Part shown: positions 5,997 to 9,933 of the stretch, in pieces | Numbering within the stretch: the first letter of the stretch is position 1 | How the letters are laid out: the number at the start of each line of letters is the position of its first letter | Virus record (IMG/VR): IMGVR_UViG_3300037458_001688 | Coordinates: 1 to 56,916 of that record | From: a virus | Taxonomy: Duplodnaviria; Caudoviricetes | Reading direction: 5' to 3' (one strand) | Length of the DNA: 56,916 bases | Translations under genes and position numbers: made by a program | Notes under the pieces: model-generated | Told to the model about the DNA's origin: nothing | Seen by the model: the letters and a program-made list of their open reading frames with translations, nothing else | Databases searched by the model: none

Positions 5997-6238
5997 CAGC
6001 TCCTCCTCACGCCCACAGCGAGTCCGAGTGCCGCCTCCCACCACTCGAGGGCACCACGCACCCAGCTCTGGGGCACGCCGTAGTCCTCGGCCAGCGCCTC
6101 GACCGAGTCTCCCGCTCGGTGGCGGTTGGCCAGGATTGACACGCCGACGCCGGTGCCACGGATGTGAAAGGCCCCGAAGCAGACTCCAGGGTCCCTCGTC
6201 ACGCCCGGAAACGGCCCCGTGAAGGCAGGCTCGCTCAT
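5996..6238 (-). CDS. DUF433 domain protein
   Basis: TRDPGVCFGAFHIRGTGVGV...GDSVEALAEDYGV. Confidence 0.8.
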   Translation of the reverse strand: MSEPAFTGPFPGVTRDPGVCFGAFHIRGTGVGVSILANRHRAGDSVEALAEDYGVPQSWVRGALEWWEAALGLAVGVRRS

Positions 6239-6555
6239 CTCGCGTCGCTCCTCTCTGCCAGCGCGTCGCCCTGGCGCAGCCAGGCGGTGATGACGTACTC
6301 CCCGCCGACCGACACCTCGACCGGGATGCACCAGTCGTGGATCATCCGGTCGCGGGCGGGGCTCCAGCGGAACGGCTCCCCCGGCTTCACGTGGTGCCCG
6401 CAGATGCAGGGGCGGCGCGGGATCACCACCACGTCGCACTCCGGGGAGACCCACCAGTAGATGACCGCCAGCGCGCACGCTGCGAGGAGCAGGATGGCGG
6501 TGAGCATGAGGATCACTGGGAGCATGGGGGGCCTCCGGTCACGTCGACTGGTCAT
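6235..6555 (-). CDS. small membrane-anchored hypothetical protein
   Basis: N-terminal TM helix followed by CICGH and HDWC. Confidence 0.5.
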   Translation of the reverse strand: MTSRRDRRPPMLPVILMLTAILLLAACALAVIYWWVSPECDVVVIPRRPCICGHHVKPGEPFRWSPARDRMIHDWCIPVEVSVGGEYVITAWLRQGDALAERSDAR

Positions 6556-7675
6556 TCGGGGCCGCCACCGGGTCGCAGACCTTCCTCCACTCGCTCCAGA
6601 GGTCGCGCAGCAGCAGCTTGTCGAGGTACCGGTGCGCCCTCTTGGCGATGTGCCCGCACCCCATGTGGGCAGCCGTCAGCTTCTTGACGACCTCTGGCCT
6701 CGGGAGCCCCTTCGCCTCCCAGTTGTCGGCTGTGGACTTCACGGTCGTGGCGACCGTCAGCCCGCGGCGACCCGCCATTTCGATCTCGTACACCAGCCGC
6801 GCGTCGTAGACGTCCCTGTACGGCCCGTGGGATGCCTTGACGATGCCCTCGCCGAGCTTCCACGCGATGCACCGCCGCCCCGGCACGTACCCCATCGCCA
6901 ACACTTCCTCGAGCGTGCCAGGCATACGGCGCTGGATCTTCCCGTCGCGCATGCCGACGCCCATCCACGCCCAGAGCTTCGCCGGGCTGGCGAATCGCCC
7001 GAGGTCCCCAGCGGTGCCGATGACCTCCGCCAGGATCAGCGGACCGATCCCGCGCACGGACTTCGCCCACGGCCAGACCCGGAGCTTGCGAACCACCTTC
7101 TCCAGGTCGTGCTCCACCCCCTTTCGCAGGGGCTCGAGCGCGGCCCTAGCGGCGAGAAGTCCGGAGCAGGCCGGAAGCGCGAGGAGCATCTGCGGGTGGT
7201 CTCCACCCTTGACGATCGCGCTGTACAGCTTCGCCGCGTCCGTCTTCTCGCCGGCGCAGCACCGCCTGCAGATGGCCTTGACCTGGAGCGTGAGCTTCAC
7301 TTCGGCCCGGTGGAAGTCCTCGCGCAGGCGGTAAAGCTCCCGGATGTGGGCGACAACCGTGTATTGGGTGGCATAGTTTCCGTGGTCGCCCACACCCGGG
7401 GAAGGGGAGTCCGGAACCGAGGCAGAGCTGGAATGGGTGGCAGTTCTATCATGGCCTCGGCCCCGGGAGCTTGAGCGACGGAGCCCAACAGATCCACGGT
7501 GGGGGGCATGACCAGGTTGGTCGGGCTCCGTCTCGTTCGAATCGCCGTGGTCGGCACTGACCAATTGGGTGGCAACCGGAGACTGGCCTTCCACGGCAAA
7601 AGGTGAGCCGCTGTCGTCAGCCGACGCATGGGCAACATTGCACGGGTGGACTTCAGCGGCTGCAATCTTCGACAT
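6539..7675 (-). CDS. tasA: TIGR-associated Nop-domain protein without a nuclease domain (TasA type; IS110/Nop fold)
   Basis: ATG at 7675 with GGAGGT RBS; coiled coil, then SVRGIGPLILAEVIG...DLGRFASPAKLWAWMG and PYRDVYDAR...HIAKRAHRYLDKLLLRDLW; no RuvC DEDD or HNH domain; overlaps the guide array. Confidence 0.85.
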   Translation of the reverse strand: MSKIAAAEVHPCNVAHASADDSGSPFAVEGQSPVATQLVSADHGDSNETEPDQPGHAPHRGSVGLRRSSSRGRGHDRTATHSSSASVPDSPSPGVGDHGNYATQYTVVAHIRELYRLREDFHRAEVKLTLQVKAICRRCCAGEKTDAAKLYSAIVKGGDHPQMLLALPACSGLLAARAALEPLRKGVEHDLEKVVRKLRVWPWAKSVRGIGPLILAEVIGTAGDLGRFASPAKLWAWMGVGMRDGKIQRRMPGTLEEVLAMGYVPGRRCIAWKLGEGIVKASHGPYRDVYDARLVYEIEMAGRRGLTVATTVKSTADNWEAKGLPRPEVVKKLTAAHMGCGHIAKRAHRYLDKLLLRDLWSEWRKVCDPVAAPNDQST

Positions 7676-7818
7676 AGCTACCTCCTGAAAGGGGTCGGGC
7701 GGGGTGAAGGCAGGGGTTCCGTGGGTGACAGAAGTAAACTGGCCTCCACCCCGCCGAATGGACAGCGAGACCGGACAAAGTGCCGTCGGGTGACATGGAG
7801 CAGATGGGCCGGTCTCGC
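7345..7818 (-). ncRNA. TIGR array: 7 stem-loop dual-spacer guide units
   Basis: Units at 7765-7818, 7698-7755, 7606-7661, 7544-7597, 7477-7532, 7411-7466 and 7345-7394; each is stem-CCA-9 nt-loop (TGCCACCCA, TGTCACCCA and variants)-9 nt-TG-complementary stem. Confidence 0.9.
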
Positions 7819-7826
7819 CATTTCTC

Positions 7827-8390
7827 TCACGCATCGCGCGTGACCTGGGCGTACAGATCGGCCACTGCGTCGTTGCTGAGCACCTCGGCCACGGTCACCT
7901 GGTCGCCGGGGAGCCGCGCCGCGATGGCCTCCTCGAACCGCGCCCTCTCGAGCGTTGTCCCCGCTGCCGTCCGCCGAGCGTTGGCGCTCTCCAGCAGGTC
8001 GTTGCGCCGGCACTCGCCGAGGACGCGCCCCCGAACCAGCCAACCCCTCAGCCAGTCGGTCGACATCGCCTGAAGACCTTCGGTGTTGCTGTTCCCCTTG
8101 GCGGACCTACGCTTGTTGCTCTCGACCGCCACCGGGTCGGGCTGTGGCTTCGGCAGAACCTGCGGGAACACCCGCCCTCCGGCCAGGTGGCTGCGCAGCT
8201 GCGACCCCGCCGCGTCGACCGCGGTGGCGATCCCGAGCTCCGCCGCCTCATGCAGCAGGTCGTCGTCAGCCAGGACCATCTCCCGGAGCTTCGCCCTCGC
8301 CGTGTTGCGGTCCTTGACCTCGTTGAGAATGTCCATGGCGAGCCGCCCGACTCCGACACAGTCCTGATGCTCTTCCGCTCGCGCGCTCAT
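7827..8390 (-). CDS. hypothetical protein directly upstream of the TIGR array
   Basis: ATG with GGAGGT RBS; stop codon ends 8 nt before unit 1. Confidence 0.7.
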   Translation of the reverse strand: MSARAEEHQDCVGVGRLAMDILNEVKDRNTARAKLREMVLADDDLLHEAAELGIATAVDAAGSQLRSHLAGGRVFPQVLPKPQPDPVAVESNKRRSAKGNSNTEGLQAMSTDWLRGWLVRGRVLGECRRNDLLESANARRTAAGTTLERARFEEAIAARLPGDQVTVAEVLSNDAVADLYAQVTRDA

Positions 8391-8392
8391 CG

Positions 8393-8593
8393 TTACCTCC
8401 CGTGTTTTCCCCGACACCCCAGCATCTCGCCGAGGTGGTGGACGATCCGTTGCTGGTTCGTGCTGTTGAGGATGTCGAGCGCCACCGCGCCCGGCCGCTC
8501 GGGGTCGCGGATCACGAGCAGGTGGGACCCGCAATCCGGGCACGTCGCCTCGCGGTAGCCGCAGCACCAGCGCCAGTGGTGGTTGCGCTTCAT
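8393..8593 (-). CDS. small zinc-ribbon protein
   Basis: CCG...CPDCG; ATGA coupling. Confidence 0.5.
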   Translation of the reverse strand: MKRNHHWRWCCGYREATCPDCGSHLLVIRDPERPGAVALDILNSTNQQRIVHHLGEMLGCRGKHGR

Positions 8594-9168
8594 GGGCCTT
8601 CCTCCCCAGCGGTCCGGCGCAGGCTGCTGCGCCAGTCGATGACGGCGTTCAGGAGCCGGTCCGCGAGGGGGAGCAGGGTGGTCGCCTCGCGCTTCGACAC
8701 CTCGCCGTCGGCCGCCGCCAGCACCCACGACGTGAGGGCGCCGCCGAATGCCTCGACGGTCTTCGCCGTCGTCTCCACCACCGTCTCCTGGTCCTCCTCC
8801 CCGTCCGCCAGCTCCAGCGGCCGGAATCCAGCAGCCTCCAAGGCCAGCGAGAGGCCCGCCCGCGCCACCTCTGGCCGTCTGAGCACGAGCAGCCAGAAGT
8901 CCTCGAGGGGAAGCCCATGCTCCCCGTCGAGCTGCTTGTTGCGGAAGCGGGGTGTCCGGTCGGCCGCGACCTGCGGCACCAGGCGGAAGAAGTCCTCGCC
9001 CCACCGACCCAAGAGCGACGCCGTGACGTCCACTGCTCCGACGTCGTCATGCTCGGCCAGCTCCCGCCGGCGCTCGGCGATGTTCTGGCGGACCATGCAG
9101 GCCCGTCCCGTGACCACCACATGGGCAACCCGCGGCTCGTGCTCGACCACCCTCAGCTGCTGGCGCAT
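8590..9168 (-). CDS. CII-like phage regulatory protein
   Basis: Position in the early operon; C-terminal AADGEVSKRE helix pair. Confidence 0.4.
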   Translation of the reverse strand: MRQQLRVVEHEPRVAHVVVTGRACMVRQNIAERRRELAEHDDVGAVDVTASLLGRWGEDFFRLVPQVAADRTPRFRNKQLDGEHGLPLEDFWLLVLRRPEVARAGLSLALEAAGFRPLELADGEEDQETVVETTAKTVEAFGGALTSWVLAAADGEVSKREATTLLPLADRLLNAVIDWRSSLRRTAGEEGP

Positions 9169-9410: not shown

Positions 9411-9667
9411 TTGGCCTCCCCGTTGTCACCCTCCGCCTTCCCGTCGCCGAGGGTCTGCTTCACGTCCCGCCGCAGGTTCTTCAGCTGGTAACGGATGGCG
9501 GCGACGTCCTTGGCCAGCGCCTCGAGCTGCGGGTCGTGCCCGAGGGCGGTCTCGACCAGGTTGCCGACCCGCCGCAGCTGCCGCCACATGCCGAAGGCGC
9601 ACGCCACGAGAACCCCGAGACCCACCAGCTCGACCGCGTCCATCGCTCCGTCCCTCCTCCAGCTCAT
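9407..9667 (-). CDS. small TM plus coiled-coil protein
   Basis: Hydrophobic helix; coupled ORF. Confidence 0.5.
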   Translation of the reverse strand: MSWRRDGAMDAVELVGLGVLVACAFGMWRQLRRVGNLVETALGHDPQLEALAKDVAAIRYQLKNLRRDVKQTLGDGKAEGDNGEAK

Positions 9668-9933
9668 CGCGATGCCTTCCTCTCCCGGTGCTCGGCCATC
9701 GTGGCCGTCTGCGCCTCCAGGTGGCGCTCGAGCTCGCGGCGGGGCACCACGATCCGGCGTCCCACCCGCACCACCCTGATCAACCCCGCGTCGATGCGCC
9801 GGCGCAGCTCCGTCTCCCCGATGGAGGACGCCGCGGCCGCCTCGCGCACCGTCAGCCCAAGCTTCCCGGCGCCGCTGGAGGCGACCATCCCCTCGAGCTT
9901 CCGAAGAAGCCGCTGCTCTTCCTTGGCCGTCAC
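9664..9933 (-). CDS. excisionase-like HTH protein
   Basis: LTVREAAAASSIGETELRRRIDAGLIRVVRVGRRIVVP. Confidence 0.8.
   Translation of the reverse strand: MTAKEEQRLLRKLEGMVASSGAGKLGLTVREAAAASSIGETELRRRIDAGLIRVVRVGRRIVVPRRELERHLEAQTATMAEHRERKASR

What the first reader, a model, noticed from the sequence alone, without database searches (positions are those of the whole stretch)
7345..7687. Guide array is dual-coding: five units lie inside the tas reading frame in one codon register
Seen: the only strong start found (GGAGGT-agct-ATG at 7675) lies between units 2 and 3, so units 3-7 encode the first ~110 aa. Loop-to-loop spacings within the CDS are 63, 66, 66 and 69 nt, all multiples of 3. The spacing between the two untranslated units is 65. 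The units translate in register: VHPCNVAHASAD, GQSPVATQLVSA, DQPGHAPHRGSV, GHDRTATHSSSA, DHGNYATQYTVV. This keeps the TGA box of unit 3 out of frame. Inference: the mRNA is its own guide precursor, so Tas binding or processing would destroy or block its own message. That would give negative autoregulation and constrain spacer evolution.
Basis: partly seen in the sequence, partly recalled or inferred. Interest (0 to 1): 0.85.

Follow-up and report, generated by a model that had tools for sequence, protein, structure and literature searches.

The report
Guide-RNA array inside phage tasA gene
A phage gene for a small RNA-guided DNA-binding protein (TasA) carries five of its seven guide-RNA units inside its own first 108 codons; related phages show the same layout, and a 2026 preprint has already described it in general terms.

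Summary
On the minus strand, seven units of the form CCA-N9-TG-N4-CCR-N9-TG, each closed by an 8-15 bp stem, lie at 7339-7821. This is a stem-loop TIGR array. It sits next to a nuclease-less Tas (Nop-fold) gene at 6539-7675. The only strong Shine-Dalgarno plus start (AGGAGG-5 nt-ATG, 7675) lies between units 2 and 3. Units 3-7 follow in one codon register, spaced 63/66/66/69 nt, with no stop.

The window alone is weak evidence. A second frame is also open, 18% of shuffles keep the tas frame open, and the stretch shows no codon bias.

The family comparison is strong. In all 14 homologue clusters that have a strong SD-start within 700 nt upstream of the core, one such start is in frame and stop-free to the core (45-450 nt). 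Of 70 units inside the longest open frame, 69 sit in the two registers where the box letters cannot form stops. Of 35 spacings between such units, 27 are multiples of three. Arrays outside the frame show neither bias.

The encoded tail is predicted to be disordered. The proposed negative autoregulation is plausible but untested.

Xu et al. (bioRxiv, September 2026) already report stem-loop arrays inside tas coding sequences "without disrupting the reading frame". This is therefore a new member of a known kind, with a quantified register rule added.

The parts
7762..7821 (-). TIGR unit 1, in the 5' untranslated region. Box C CCA at 7807, second box CCG, 13-bp closing stem. Register 0 relative to the tas frame.
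7698..7755 (-). TIGR unit 2, in the 5' untranslated region. CCA at 7742, 13-bp stem.
7673..7686 (-). Shine-Dalgarno AGGAGG (7686-7681), 5-nt spacer, ATG (7675-7673). It sits in the widened 93-nt interval between units 2 and 3 (CCA to CCA), in about 34 nt not covered by a stem.
7606..7661 (-). TIGR unit 3, inside the ORF in register 1 (xxC CAN NNN NNN NNT Gxx). 8-bp stem whose 5' arm starts 14 nt after the A of the ATG.
7542..7599 (-). TIGR unit 4, inside the ORF in register 1. 9-bp stem.
7477..7532 (-). TIGR unit 5, inside the ORF in register 1. 12-bp stem.
7411..7466 (-). TIGR unit 6, inside the ORF in register 1. 12-bp stem.
7339..7400 (-). TIGR unit 7, inside the ORF in register 1. 15-bp stem. 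The 3' arm (7353-7339) encodes V-A-H-I-R-E, the first residues of the conserved core. The 5' arm contains GTG 7393, the start chosen by the gene caller.
7352..7675 (-). N-terminal extension of TasA, 108 codons. Predicted disordered (pLDDT below 50 for residues 1-83). GC3 is 0.55-0.70 against 0.91 in the core.
6539..7351 (-). TasA core, 270 aa plus stop: coiled-coil helix and Nop-like domain. Model pLDDT about 98. Best fold matches are TIGR-TasR 9mty and the TasH structures.

Best explanation
This is a phage-borne stem-loop TIGR-TasA system, and the array and the gene overlap. One minus-strand transcript region (about 7821 to 6539) carries seven tigRNA units. Units 1-2 lie in the 5' leader. Translation of tasA starts at ATG 7675 behind AGGAGG and reads through units 3-7. 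[quoted passage not shown]

The frame stays open because the units sit in a codon register where the constant box letters read as xxC-CAN and NNT-Gxx, which can never form stops. Unit-to-unit distances are multiples of three, and the two free codons in each spacer carry no stop.

Shown: the anatomy, the Tas fold, family-wide maintenance of the frame, and the disorder of the tail.

Inferred: a given transcript can either be cut into tigRNAs 3-7 or be translated into full-length TasA, but not both, so guide maturation and TasA synthesis compete for the same molecules. Also inferred: a TasA dimer, or the folded stem of unit 3 at +14, could hinder initiation, which would give feedback.

I put 0.7 on translation starting at 7675 and reading through units 3-7, and about 0.9 on at least unit 7 being translated. 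I put about 0.3 on this acting as true negative autoregulation.
For: Identity. The AF2 model of the core has pLDDT about 98. Its top 10 PDB fold matches are TasR 9mty (E 8e-7) and TasH complexes, followed by IS110-family recombinases and Nop5/Prp31. The family profile hits 9mty_A at E 7.9e-22.

Array. There are 7 of 7 exact box-pattern matches against 0.35 expected. Stems are 8-15 bp. The fold has z = -7.05.

Start. I scanned 43 loci in 28 clusters (80% identity) for a strong SD followed 4-10 nt later by a start in any frame, within 700 nt upstream of the core. All 14 clusters that have any such site have one in the tas frame with 0 stops to the core, at distances of 45-450 nt. Off-frame or stop-containing sites occur only in L071, L006, L028 and L058/L059. 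Over those same intervals in 20 loci, the tas frame is open in 20 of 20, the next frame in 5 of 20 and the third in 0 of 20.

No alternative start. In the window, no in-frame ATG, GTG or TTG lies between unit 7 and core residue 10. The same holds for 12 of the 17 cluster representatives that have a unit within 120 nt of the core. GTG 7393 has no SD and lies inside unit 7's 15-bp stem.

Register. Of 89 distinct high-confidence units up to 600 nt upstream of the cores, 8 are in register 0, 46 in register 1 and 35 in register 2 (binomial p = 7e-8; the units are not fully independent). Inside the longest open frame the counts are 1/41/28. Upstream of it they are 7/5/7. Spacings that are 3n number 27 of 35 inside and 3 of 9 outside.

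Protein-level survey. Of 141 representative homologues with an aligned core N-terminus, 108 have called extensions of at least 30 aa. Of the 141, 86 carry at least one peptide signature of an embedded unit. The register-1 signature occurs at 16.8 per 1000 aa, against 0.93 in the cores and 1.1 in shuffled extensions.

Literature and RNA. Xu et al. 2026 report intragenic stem-loop tigRNAs, and small RNA-seq of BlTasA shows that such units are expressed. Contigs from 3 of 4 metatranscriptome runs cover parts of the array. This is weak evidence.
Against: The window alone does not prove it. A second frame is open across the array, and 17.6% of box-preserving shuffles keep the tas frame open.

The extension shows no codon bias. 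GC3 is 0.55 in the units and 0.70 in the linkers, against 0.91 in the core.

The gene caller behind the database entry chose GTG 7393, giving 284 aa.

Some homologues begin right at the core (P0005, P0010, P0011; arrays outside the ORF in L017, L020, L032). The tail is therefore not needed for Tas function.

There is no direct evidence of translation, and the RNA-library contigs cannot show strand, ends or processing.

The homologous loci were selected for the unit counts by my own caller, which requires a stem of at least 6-7 bp, and related loci share ancestry, so the p-values are optimistic.

On autoregulation specifically, Xu et al. argue that stem-loop tigRNA maturation probably uses a host RNase and that separate internal promoters cannot be excluded.
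Confidence: 0.7

Rival explanations
1. Only the last unit is translated. Translation starts at GTG 7393, as the gene caller chose, or at another internal codon. The open frame from 7675 is then a by-product of high GC content, and the AGGAGG-ATG is fortuitous or serves a short leader.
For: The database entry for this protein is 284 aa, which corresponds to GTG 7393. A second frame is also open, and 17.6% of shuffles are open in the tas frame. Residues 1-108 show no codon bias. Homologues without an extension exist.
Against: GTG 7393 has no SD and lies in the 5' arm of a 15-bp stem. AGGAGG-ATG 7675 is the only strong SD-start within 700 nt in any frame, and it is in frame. The same holds in 13 other clusters. 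Alternative frames over the same intervals are open in only 5 of 40 cases. Register and 3n bias appear only in arrays inside the frame.
Confidence: 0.15
2. Dual coding is real but has no regulatory meaning. Arrays grow by duplicating units next to the fixed last unit. Only in-frame, stop-free expansions survive, because the SD and start end up upstream. The tail is inert, and the ratio of Tas to tigRNA is set by other means such as a host RNase or separate promoters.
For: The tail is disordered. Its length varies from 45 to 450 nt between clusters. It is absent in some homologues. Register 1 outnumbers the equally safe register 2 (41 against 28; 78 against 27 proteins), which looks like inheritance of phase from the last unit rather than optimisation. 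Xu et al. favour host RNase processing.
Against: Physical exclusivity still follows from the anatomy: a cut inside units 3-7 removes the SD and ATG from the core. This rival disputes the function, not the structure, so nothing in my data excludes it.
Confidence: 0.4
3. The in-frame units are decayed fossils that no longer yield guides. Only units 1-2 would be functional.
For: No targets were found for any unit in the window. There is no direct evidence of processing.
Against: Units 3-7 have perfect boxes and the longest stems, 8-15 bp. The stem of the last unit covaries across 12 loci: 91% of cells are paired against 63% in shuffles, and 11 of 12 pairs show changes on both sides. That set was pre-selected for having a stem. 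RNA-library contigs cover 7357-7646.
Confidence: 0.07

Closest known systems
Intragenic stem-loop TIGR arrays (Xu et al., bioRxiv 10.64898/2026.09.09.750476; BlTasA)
   Same: Stem-loop tigRNA units with CCA/TG boxes lie inside the tas ORF without breaking the frame. They map to disordered protein regions. A link between tigRNA maturation and Tas translation is suggested. (Sections 5, 11, 13 and 30 read.)
   Different: In BlTasA the intragenic units map to the internal wedge loop. Here five units form the whole N-terminal tail and two more lie in the leader. In the sections and passages I read, I found no codon-register rule, no 3n spacing and no SD-start analysis. I did not read the whole text, and supplements are closed.
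PlTasA stem-loop TIGR system (Faure et al. 2025, PMC12045711 section 9; Guan et al. 2026, passages)
   Same: A nuclease-less TasA with an array of hairpins, each holding two 8-12-nt spacers flanked by box C/D-like motifs. The tigRNAs are expressed and processed.
   Different: The text I read does not describe those units as lying inside the tas coding sequence. It describes 13 units in three subarrays separated by an intergenic region of about 450 nt.
TnpB processing its own mRNA into omega-RNA (Nety et al. 2023, PMC10278001; search listing only)
   Same: The guide RNA overlaps the effector's ORF, and the message is the guide precursor. Making a guide therefore consumes a message.
   Different: The protein family is unrelated. 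There is one guide at the 3' end of the ORF, and processing by the effector itself has been shown. Here there are several guides at the 5' end and the processing enzyme is unknown.
IS110-family bridge RNA and box C/D snoRNP (Nop5)
   Same: They share the Nop-type RNA-binding fold (ranks 12-26; Pfam Transposase_20 hit). The guide is encoded next to the protein gene.
   Different: There is no RuvC or recombinase domain and no fibrillarin partner. As I recall, bridge RNAs and snoRNAs are non-coding.

Membership tests
TIGR-Tas, stem-loop type, TasA | Protein with the Tas coiled-coil and Nop fold | tested here: met
   The top 10 Foldseek PDB hits are TasR 9mty (E 8e-7) and TasH structures. The family profile hits 9mty_A at E 7.9e-22.
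TIGR-Tas, stem-loop type, TasA | No HNH or RuvC nuclease domain (TasA, not TasH or TasR) | tested here: met
   The only Pfam hit is Transposase_20. The first ~98 residues of the model, ahead of helix 1, have no secondary structure and low confidence (pLDDT below 50 for residues 1-83).
TIGR-Tas, stem-loop type, TasA | Units made of two ~9-nt spacers, each between box C (CCA-like) and box D (TG/CG), with the halves no more than 15 nt apart (TIGRFinder criteria) | tested here: met
   7 exact matches to CCA-N9-TG-N4-CCR-N9-TG against 0.35 expected.
TIGR-Tas, stem-loop type, TasA | Palindromic stem of at least 5 bp closing each spacer pair | tested here: met
   Stems of 13, 13, 8, 9, 12, 12 and 15 pairs. 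The MFE fold recovers them, z = -7.05.
TIGR-Tas, stem-loop type, TasA | [quoted passage not shown] | tested here: inconclusive
   Read by eye. CTT lies within about 6 nt 3' of the stems of units 3, 6 and 7, but not clearly at the others. No statistics were run.
TIGR-Tas, stem-loop type, TasA | Array transcribed and processed into tigRNAs bound by Tas | tested here: inconclusive
   Contigs from RNA libraries cover 7357-7646 and 7670-7820 in 3 of 4 runs. Contigs cannot show strand, ends or processing, and DNA carry-over is possible.
TIGR-Tas, stem-loop type, TasA | RNA-guided binding of DNA through both spacers | not testable with these tools
   No target with 2 or fewer mismatches for any of the 7 units in the window, in either spacer arrangement.
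Intragenic (dual-coding) TIGR array as described by Xu et al. 2026 | Units inside the tas ORF with the reading frame undisrupted | tested here: met
   0 stops from 7675 to 6542. The SD-start is upstream of units 3-7. Family-wide frame maintenance.
Intragenic (dual-coding) TIGR array as described by Xu et al. 2026 | The intragenic part corresponds to a disordered protein region outside the Nop fold | tested here: met
   pLDDT is below 50 for residues 1-83. Helix 1 starts at residue 99.
Self-mRNA-processing guide systems (TnpB type) | The effector itself cleaves its mRNA to release the guide | not testable with these tools
   Analogy only. [quoted passage not shown]

The most novel reading that the evidence does not exclude
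The 5' third of the tasA message is an obligate guide precursor and works as a homeostat. A TasA dimer loading on unit 3, whose stem begins 14 nt after the start codon, or cleavage at any of units 3-7, shuts off TasA synthesis from that transcript. Translating ribosomes, in turn, melt the stems and block guide maturation. The ratio of TasA to tigRNA would then set itself.

The two safe registers plus 3n spacing would be a general grammar that lets guide arrays expand inside ORFs. That grammar could be used to predict translated arrays across all TIGR loci.
Probability: 0.25. Interest if true: 0.7.

Novelty: new member of a known kind. Interest (0 to 1): 0.45.

Why it matters
Guide RNAs that are also codons of their own effector are rare, and they place two sets of constraints on one sequence.

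This locus is a clean case with five units in one register behind an unambiguous SD-ATG. It belongs to a large clade: 2672 cluster representatives match at E up to 0.001, and among 141 of the best-scoring representatives examined most called N-terminal extensions carry the unit signature.

The register rule gives a simple, testable criterion for which TIGR units are translated. It also fixes the true start codons, which gene callers currently place inconsistently (284 aa here against 378 aa). The layout defines a concrete experiment on coupling between guide maturation and effector translation, which Xu et al. raised but did not test.

For engineering TasA repressors, it implies that the native N-terminal tail is probably dispensable as protein.

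Tried and rejected
Self-targeting. For all 7 units I searched both strands of the window with rc(A)+B, B+rc(A), A+rc(B) and rc(B)+A and gaps of 0-2 nt. There were no hits with 2 or fewer mismatches. Hits with 3-4 mismatches were few and included the array itself. No target was identified.

Promoter and terminator scan of 6300-8700: 0 promoter-like and 0 terminator-like sites. This says nothing about separate promoters.

Rfam scan of 7000-8100: only a chance-level Norovirus CRE match at E 0.81. None of the Rfam families scanned matched these units above chance level.

Neighbouring genes. PHROGs and Pfam on 9 neighbouring minus-strand ORFs gave only unknown-function families and one HTH/excisionase-like protein at 9664-9933. 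They give no functional context.

RNA libraries. Four metatranscriptome runs, stored as assembled contigs, gave 7 fully laid short pieces plus 2 fragments of one mostly non-matching contig, at low depth (2-10). Stretches without cover (6000-6260, 6960-7300, 7830-8600) prove nothing. Two contigs from two studies end at 7357 and 7358, inside unit 7. That is a weak hint of an RNA end and no more.

Codon bias as a test of translation. The tail lacks the genome's GC3 bias. Because the RNA constraints dominate these positions, I count this as only mild evidence against translation.

Openness of the frame in this window alone. I rejected it as evidence.

Covariation of the last unit's stem is strong, but the 12 units were pre-selected by a caller that requires a stem, so it is only supporting evidence.

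The distance from the start codon to the first in-frame stem in other loci, worked out by hand, ranged from about 1 to 45 nt. It was too rough to use.

Paper supplements are closed. The supplementary tables of Xu et al. and the TIGRSafari resource may already list this locus or the register statistics.
Full report
WHAT IS THERE. The window is a 56.9-kb virus record, estimated 82% complete, with GC about 0.69.

On the minus strand, the pattern CCA-N9-TG-N4-CCR-N9-TG occurs seven times and nowhere else in the window. The first C of each unit is at 7807, 7742, 7649, 7586, 7520, 7454 and 7385. Shuffles give 0.35 matches on average, and 0 of 100 reach 7. Each unit is closed by a stem that flanks the boxes, of 13, 13, 8, 9, 12, 12 and 15 pairs. 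An RNA fold of 7325-7835(-) recovers all seven stem-loops: -233.9 kcal/mol, z = -7.05, and 0 of 100 shuffles fold as well.

These features match the criteria for stem-loop TIGR arrays: box C CCA-like, box D TG or CG, halves no more than 15 nt apart, stem at least 5 bp. I took the criteria from Faure et al. 2025 (PMC12045711, sections 9 and 24-26) and from passages of the methods of Xu et al. 2026.

THE PROTEIN. The adjoining ORF, 6539-7675(-), encodes 378 aa. Pfam gives only a weak Transposase_20 hit.

An AlphaFold2 model built on a 77-sequence alignment has pLDDT about 98 for residues 99-367. pLDDT is below 50 for residues 1-83. The ten best PDB fold matches are TIGR-TasR (9mty, E 8e-7) and TasH complexes. 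IS110-family recombinases and Nop5/Prp31 follow. The family profile hits 9mty_A at E 7.9e-22. There is no nuclease domain, so this is a TasA.

Every stated detail holds:
- AGGAGG-tagct-ATG at 7686-7673 lies between units 2 and 3.
- Spacings are 65 for units 1-2, a widened 93 for units 2-3 that houses the SD and ATG, and then 63, 66, 66 and 69.
- The five quoted peptides are in the translation.
- The TGA at the end of unit 3 reads GCT GAC in frame.

All five in-frame units share one register, xxC CAN NNN NNN NNT Gxx. The 3' arm of unit 7's stem encodes V-A-H-I-R-E, the first residues of the conserved core. Helix 1 of the model begins at residue 99, inside the part encoded by unit 7's second spacer.

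IS IT MORE THAN CHANCE? From this window alone, barely.
- The neighbouring frame is also stop-free over 7675-7346.
- With the boxes fixed and the other letters permuted, 17.6% of shuffles keep the tas frame open.
- 28% of random 330-nt frames in this GC-rich window are open.
- The tail lacks the genome's codon bias. GC3 is 0.55 in the units and 0.70 in the linkers, against 0.91 in the core.
- The gene caller behind the database entry chose GTG 7393, giving 284 aa.
- Four 3n spacings out of four has a naive chance of 1/81.

FAMILY COMPARISON. I fetched 71 related loci. I kept the 42 whose match reaches core residues 1-3, plus the window, giving 43 loci in 28 clusters at 80% identity. The other loci were dropped because the N-terminus of the core was not matched or because they duplicated a record.

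(a) Strong SD-starts. I scanned for AGGAG, GGAGG or AGGAGG followed 4-10 nt later by ATG, GTG or TTG, in any frame, within 700 nt upstream of the core. Fourteen clusters have such a site. In all 14, one site is in the tas frame with no stop before the core, at distances of 45-450 nt. The remaining sites are in L071 (off frame, 4 stops), L006 (1 stop), L028 (off frame) and the repeated sites in L058/L059.

(b) Other frames as control. Over those same intervals in 20 loci, the tas frame is open in 20 of 20. The next frame is open in 5 of 20 and the third in 0 of 20.

(c) No alternative start. Seventeen cluster representatives have a high-confidence unit within 120 nt of the core. Twelve of them, the window included, have no in-frame ATG, GTG or TTG between that unit and core residue 10. 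Five do: L009, L014, L032, L044 and L050. In the window the next downstream in-frame start is GTG 7300, which would delete 17 conserved residues. GTG 7393 has no SD and is buried in a 15-bp stem.

(d) Register. There are 89 distinct high-confidence units up to 600 nt upstream of the cores. Of these, 8 are in register 0 (CCA NNN NNN NNN TGx, where a stop is possible), 46 in register 1 and 35 in register 2. The binomial p for so few in register 0 is 7e-8, but the units share ancestry, so this is optimistic. Inside the longest open frame the counts are 1/41/28, and the single register-0 unit is the window's unit 1, upstream of the SD-ATG. Upstream of the frame the counts are 7/5/7.

(e) Spacing. 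Spacing between consecutive units is 3n in 27 of 35 cases inside the frame and in 3 of 9 outside.

(f) Homologues with arrays outside the ORF. L017 (46-nt period), L020, L032 and most of L058/L059 show cycling registers and stops. That is what dual coding predicts.

(g) Protein-level survey. Of 141 representative homologues with an aligned core N-terminus, 108 have called extensions of at least 30 aa. Of the 141, 86 carry at least one peptide signature of an embedded unit with a 4-nt loop (78 in register 1, 27 in register 2). The register-1 density is 16.8 per 1000 aa, against 0.93 in the cores and 1.1 in shuffled extensions. These N-termini are gene-caller choices.

(h) Spacer turnover. Three near-identical loci (L002, L025, L071) differ almost only in their 9-nt spacers. 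All three keep an AGGAGG-ATG that overlaps the stop of the upstream gene (ATGA) and 360 nt of open frame.

(i) Stem covariation. The stem of the last unit covaries across 12 loci. 91% of cells are paired against 63% in shuffles and 37-56% when slid, and 11 of 12 pairs show changes on both sides. These units were pre-selected for having a stem.

Results against the reading. Some homologues start directly at the core: P0005, P0010 and P0011. The tail is predicted to be disordered. So the tail is not needed for Tas function as protein.

MECHANISM.
Shown: a stem-loop TIGR array overlaps the 5' part of tasA, and the clade keeps the frame open through such arrays.

Inferred: translation starts at 7675 and yields a 108-residue disordered tail. 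Excising any of units 3-7 from a transcript separates the SD and ATG from the core ORF, so one RNA molecule yields either guides or protein. Unit 3's stem starts 14 nt after the A of the ATG, so a folded or Tas-bound unit 3 could hinder initiation. Whether this produces negative feedback is untested.

[quoted passage not shown] They suggest a host RNase and do not exclude internal promoters. The constraint on spacers is mild: two fully free codons per 9-nt spacer must avoid three stop codons (my arithmetic).

I found no target of the seven guides in the phage's own sequence.

Contigs from RNA libraries in 3 of 4 runs cover 7357-7646 and 7670-7820, and one run covers parts of the core. This is compatible with expression. 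It cannot show strand, ends or processing.

WHAT IS KNOWN. Xu et al. [quoted passage not shown] They show by small RNA-seq that BlTasA has tigRNAs inside its ORF, in the wedge loop. The phenomenon is therefore in print.

In the parts I read, and in two full-text searches ('TIGR-Tas'; 'tigRNA' with 'reading frame') plus passages of Guan et al. 2026, I found no statement of the codon-register rule, the 3n spacing or the SD-start test. I did not read the whole texts, and supplements are closed.

The nearest functional analogue is TnpB processing its own mRNA into omega-RNA (PMC10278001, search listing only).

VERDICT. The dual-coding interpretation is supported by comparative evidence, with confidence 0.7 for the start at 7675 and about 0.9 for at least unit 7 being translated. 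Autoregulation is unproven, at about 0.3. This is a new member of a known kind, with a quantified register rule that may be new. Interest 0.45.

Noticed in passing
L003, L008, L010, L012, L013, L019, L007 (about 660-675 nt after the core start): Many homologous loci also carry a high-confidence unit, mostly in register 1, overlapping the last ~15 codons of the tas ORF, with further units just downstream. The window has none at its 3' end.
   Followed up: partly
L002:200-800, L025:87-687, L071:1632-2232: Three loci are almost identical except in the 9-nt spacers (mean column identity 92%, with differences concentrated in the spacers). This looks like spacer replacement with no other change. How TIGR arrays acquire spacers is unknown.
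   Followed up: partly
L058 and L059, 170-490 nt upstream of the core: AGGAGG-7 nt-ATG recurs every ~131 nt inside the array, off frame or followed by stops. It could mark small ORFs or be part of the repeat.
   Followed up: no
window 7357-7358: RNA-library contigs from two different runs (X4 and X6) end at 7358 and 7357, inside unit 7 near its second box D. This is a weak hint of an RNA end.
   Followed up: no
window 7386-7400 and 7339-7353: The 5' arm of unit 7's stem, which encodes P-G-V-G-D of the tail, is the reverse complement of the codons for V-A-H-I-R-E at the start of the core. Part of the tail's sequence is therefore dictated by the core's codons.
   Followed up: partly
window 7297-7665 (-): A second open frame of 122 aa starting with TTG runs through the whole array. 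It corresponds to the other safe register and is probably not a gene.
   Followed up: partly
window 9664-9933 (-): An 89-aa HTH_17/excisionase-like protein lies about 2 kb upstream on the same strand. The other neighbours have no known family.
   Followed up: no
window 7762-7821 (unit 1): Unit 1 has CCG rather than CCA as its second box C. It is the only unit in register 0, and its spacing to unit 2 is 65 nt, not 3n. This is consistent with its lying outside the translated part.
   Followed up: yes
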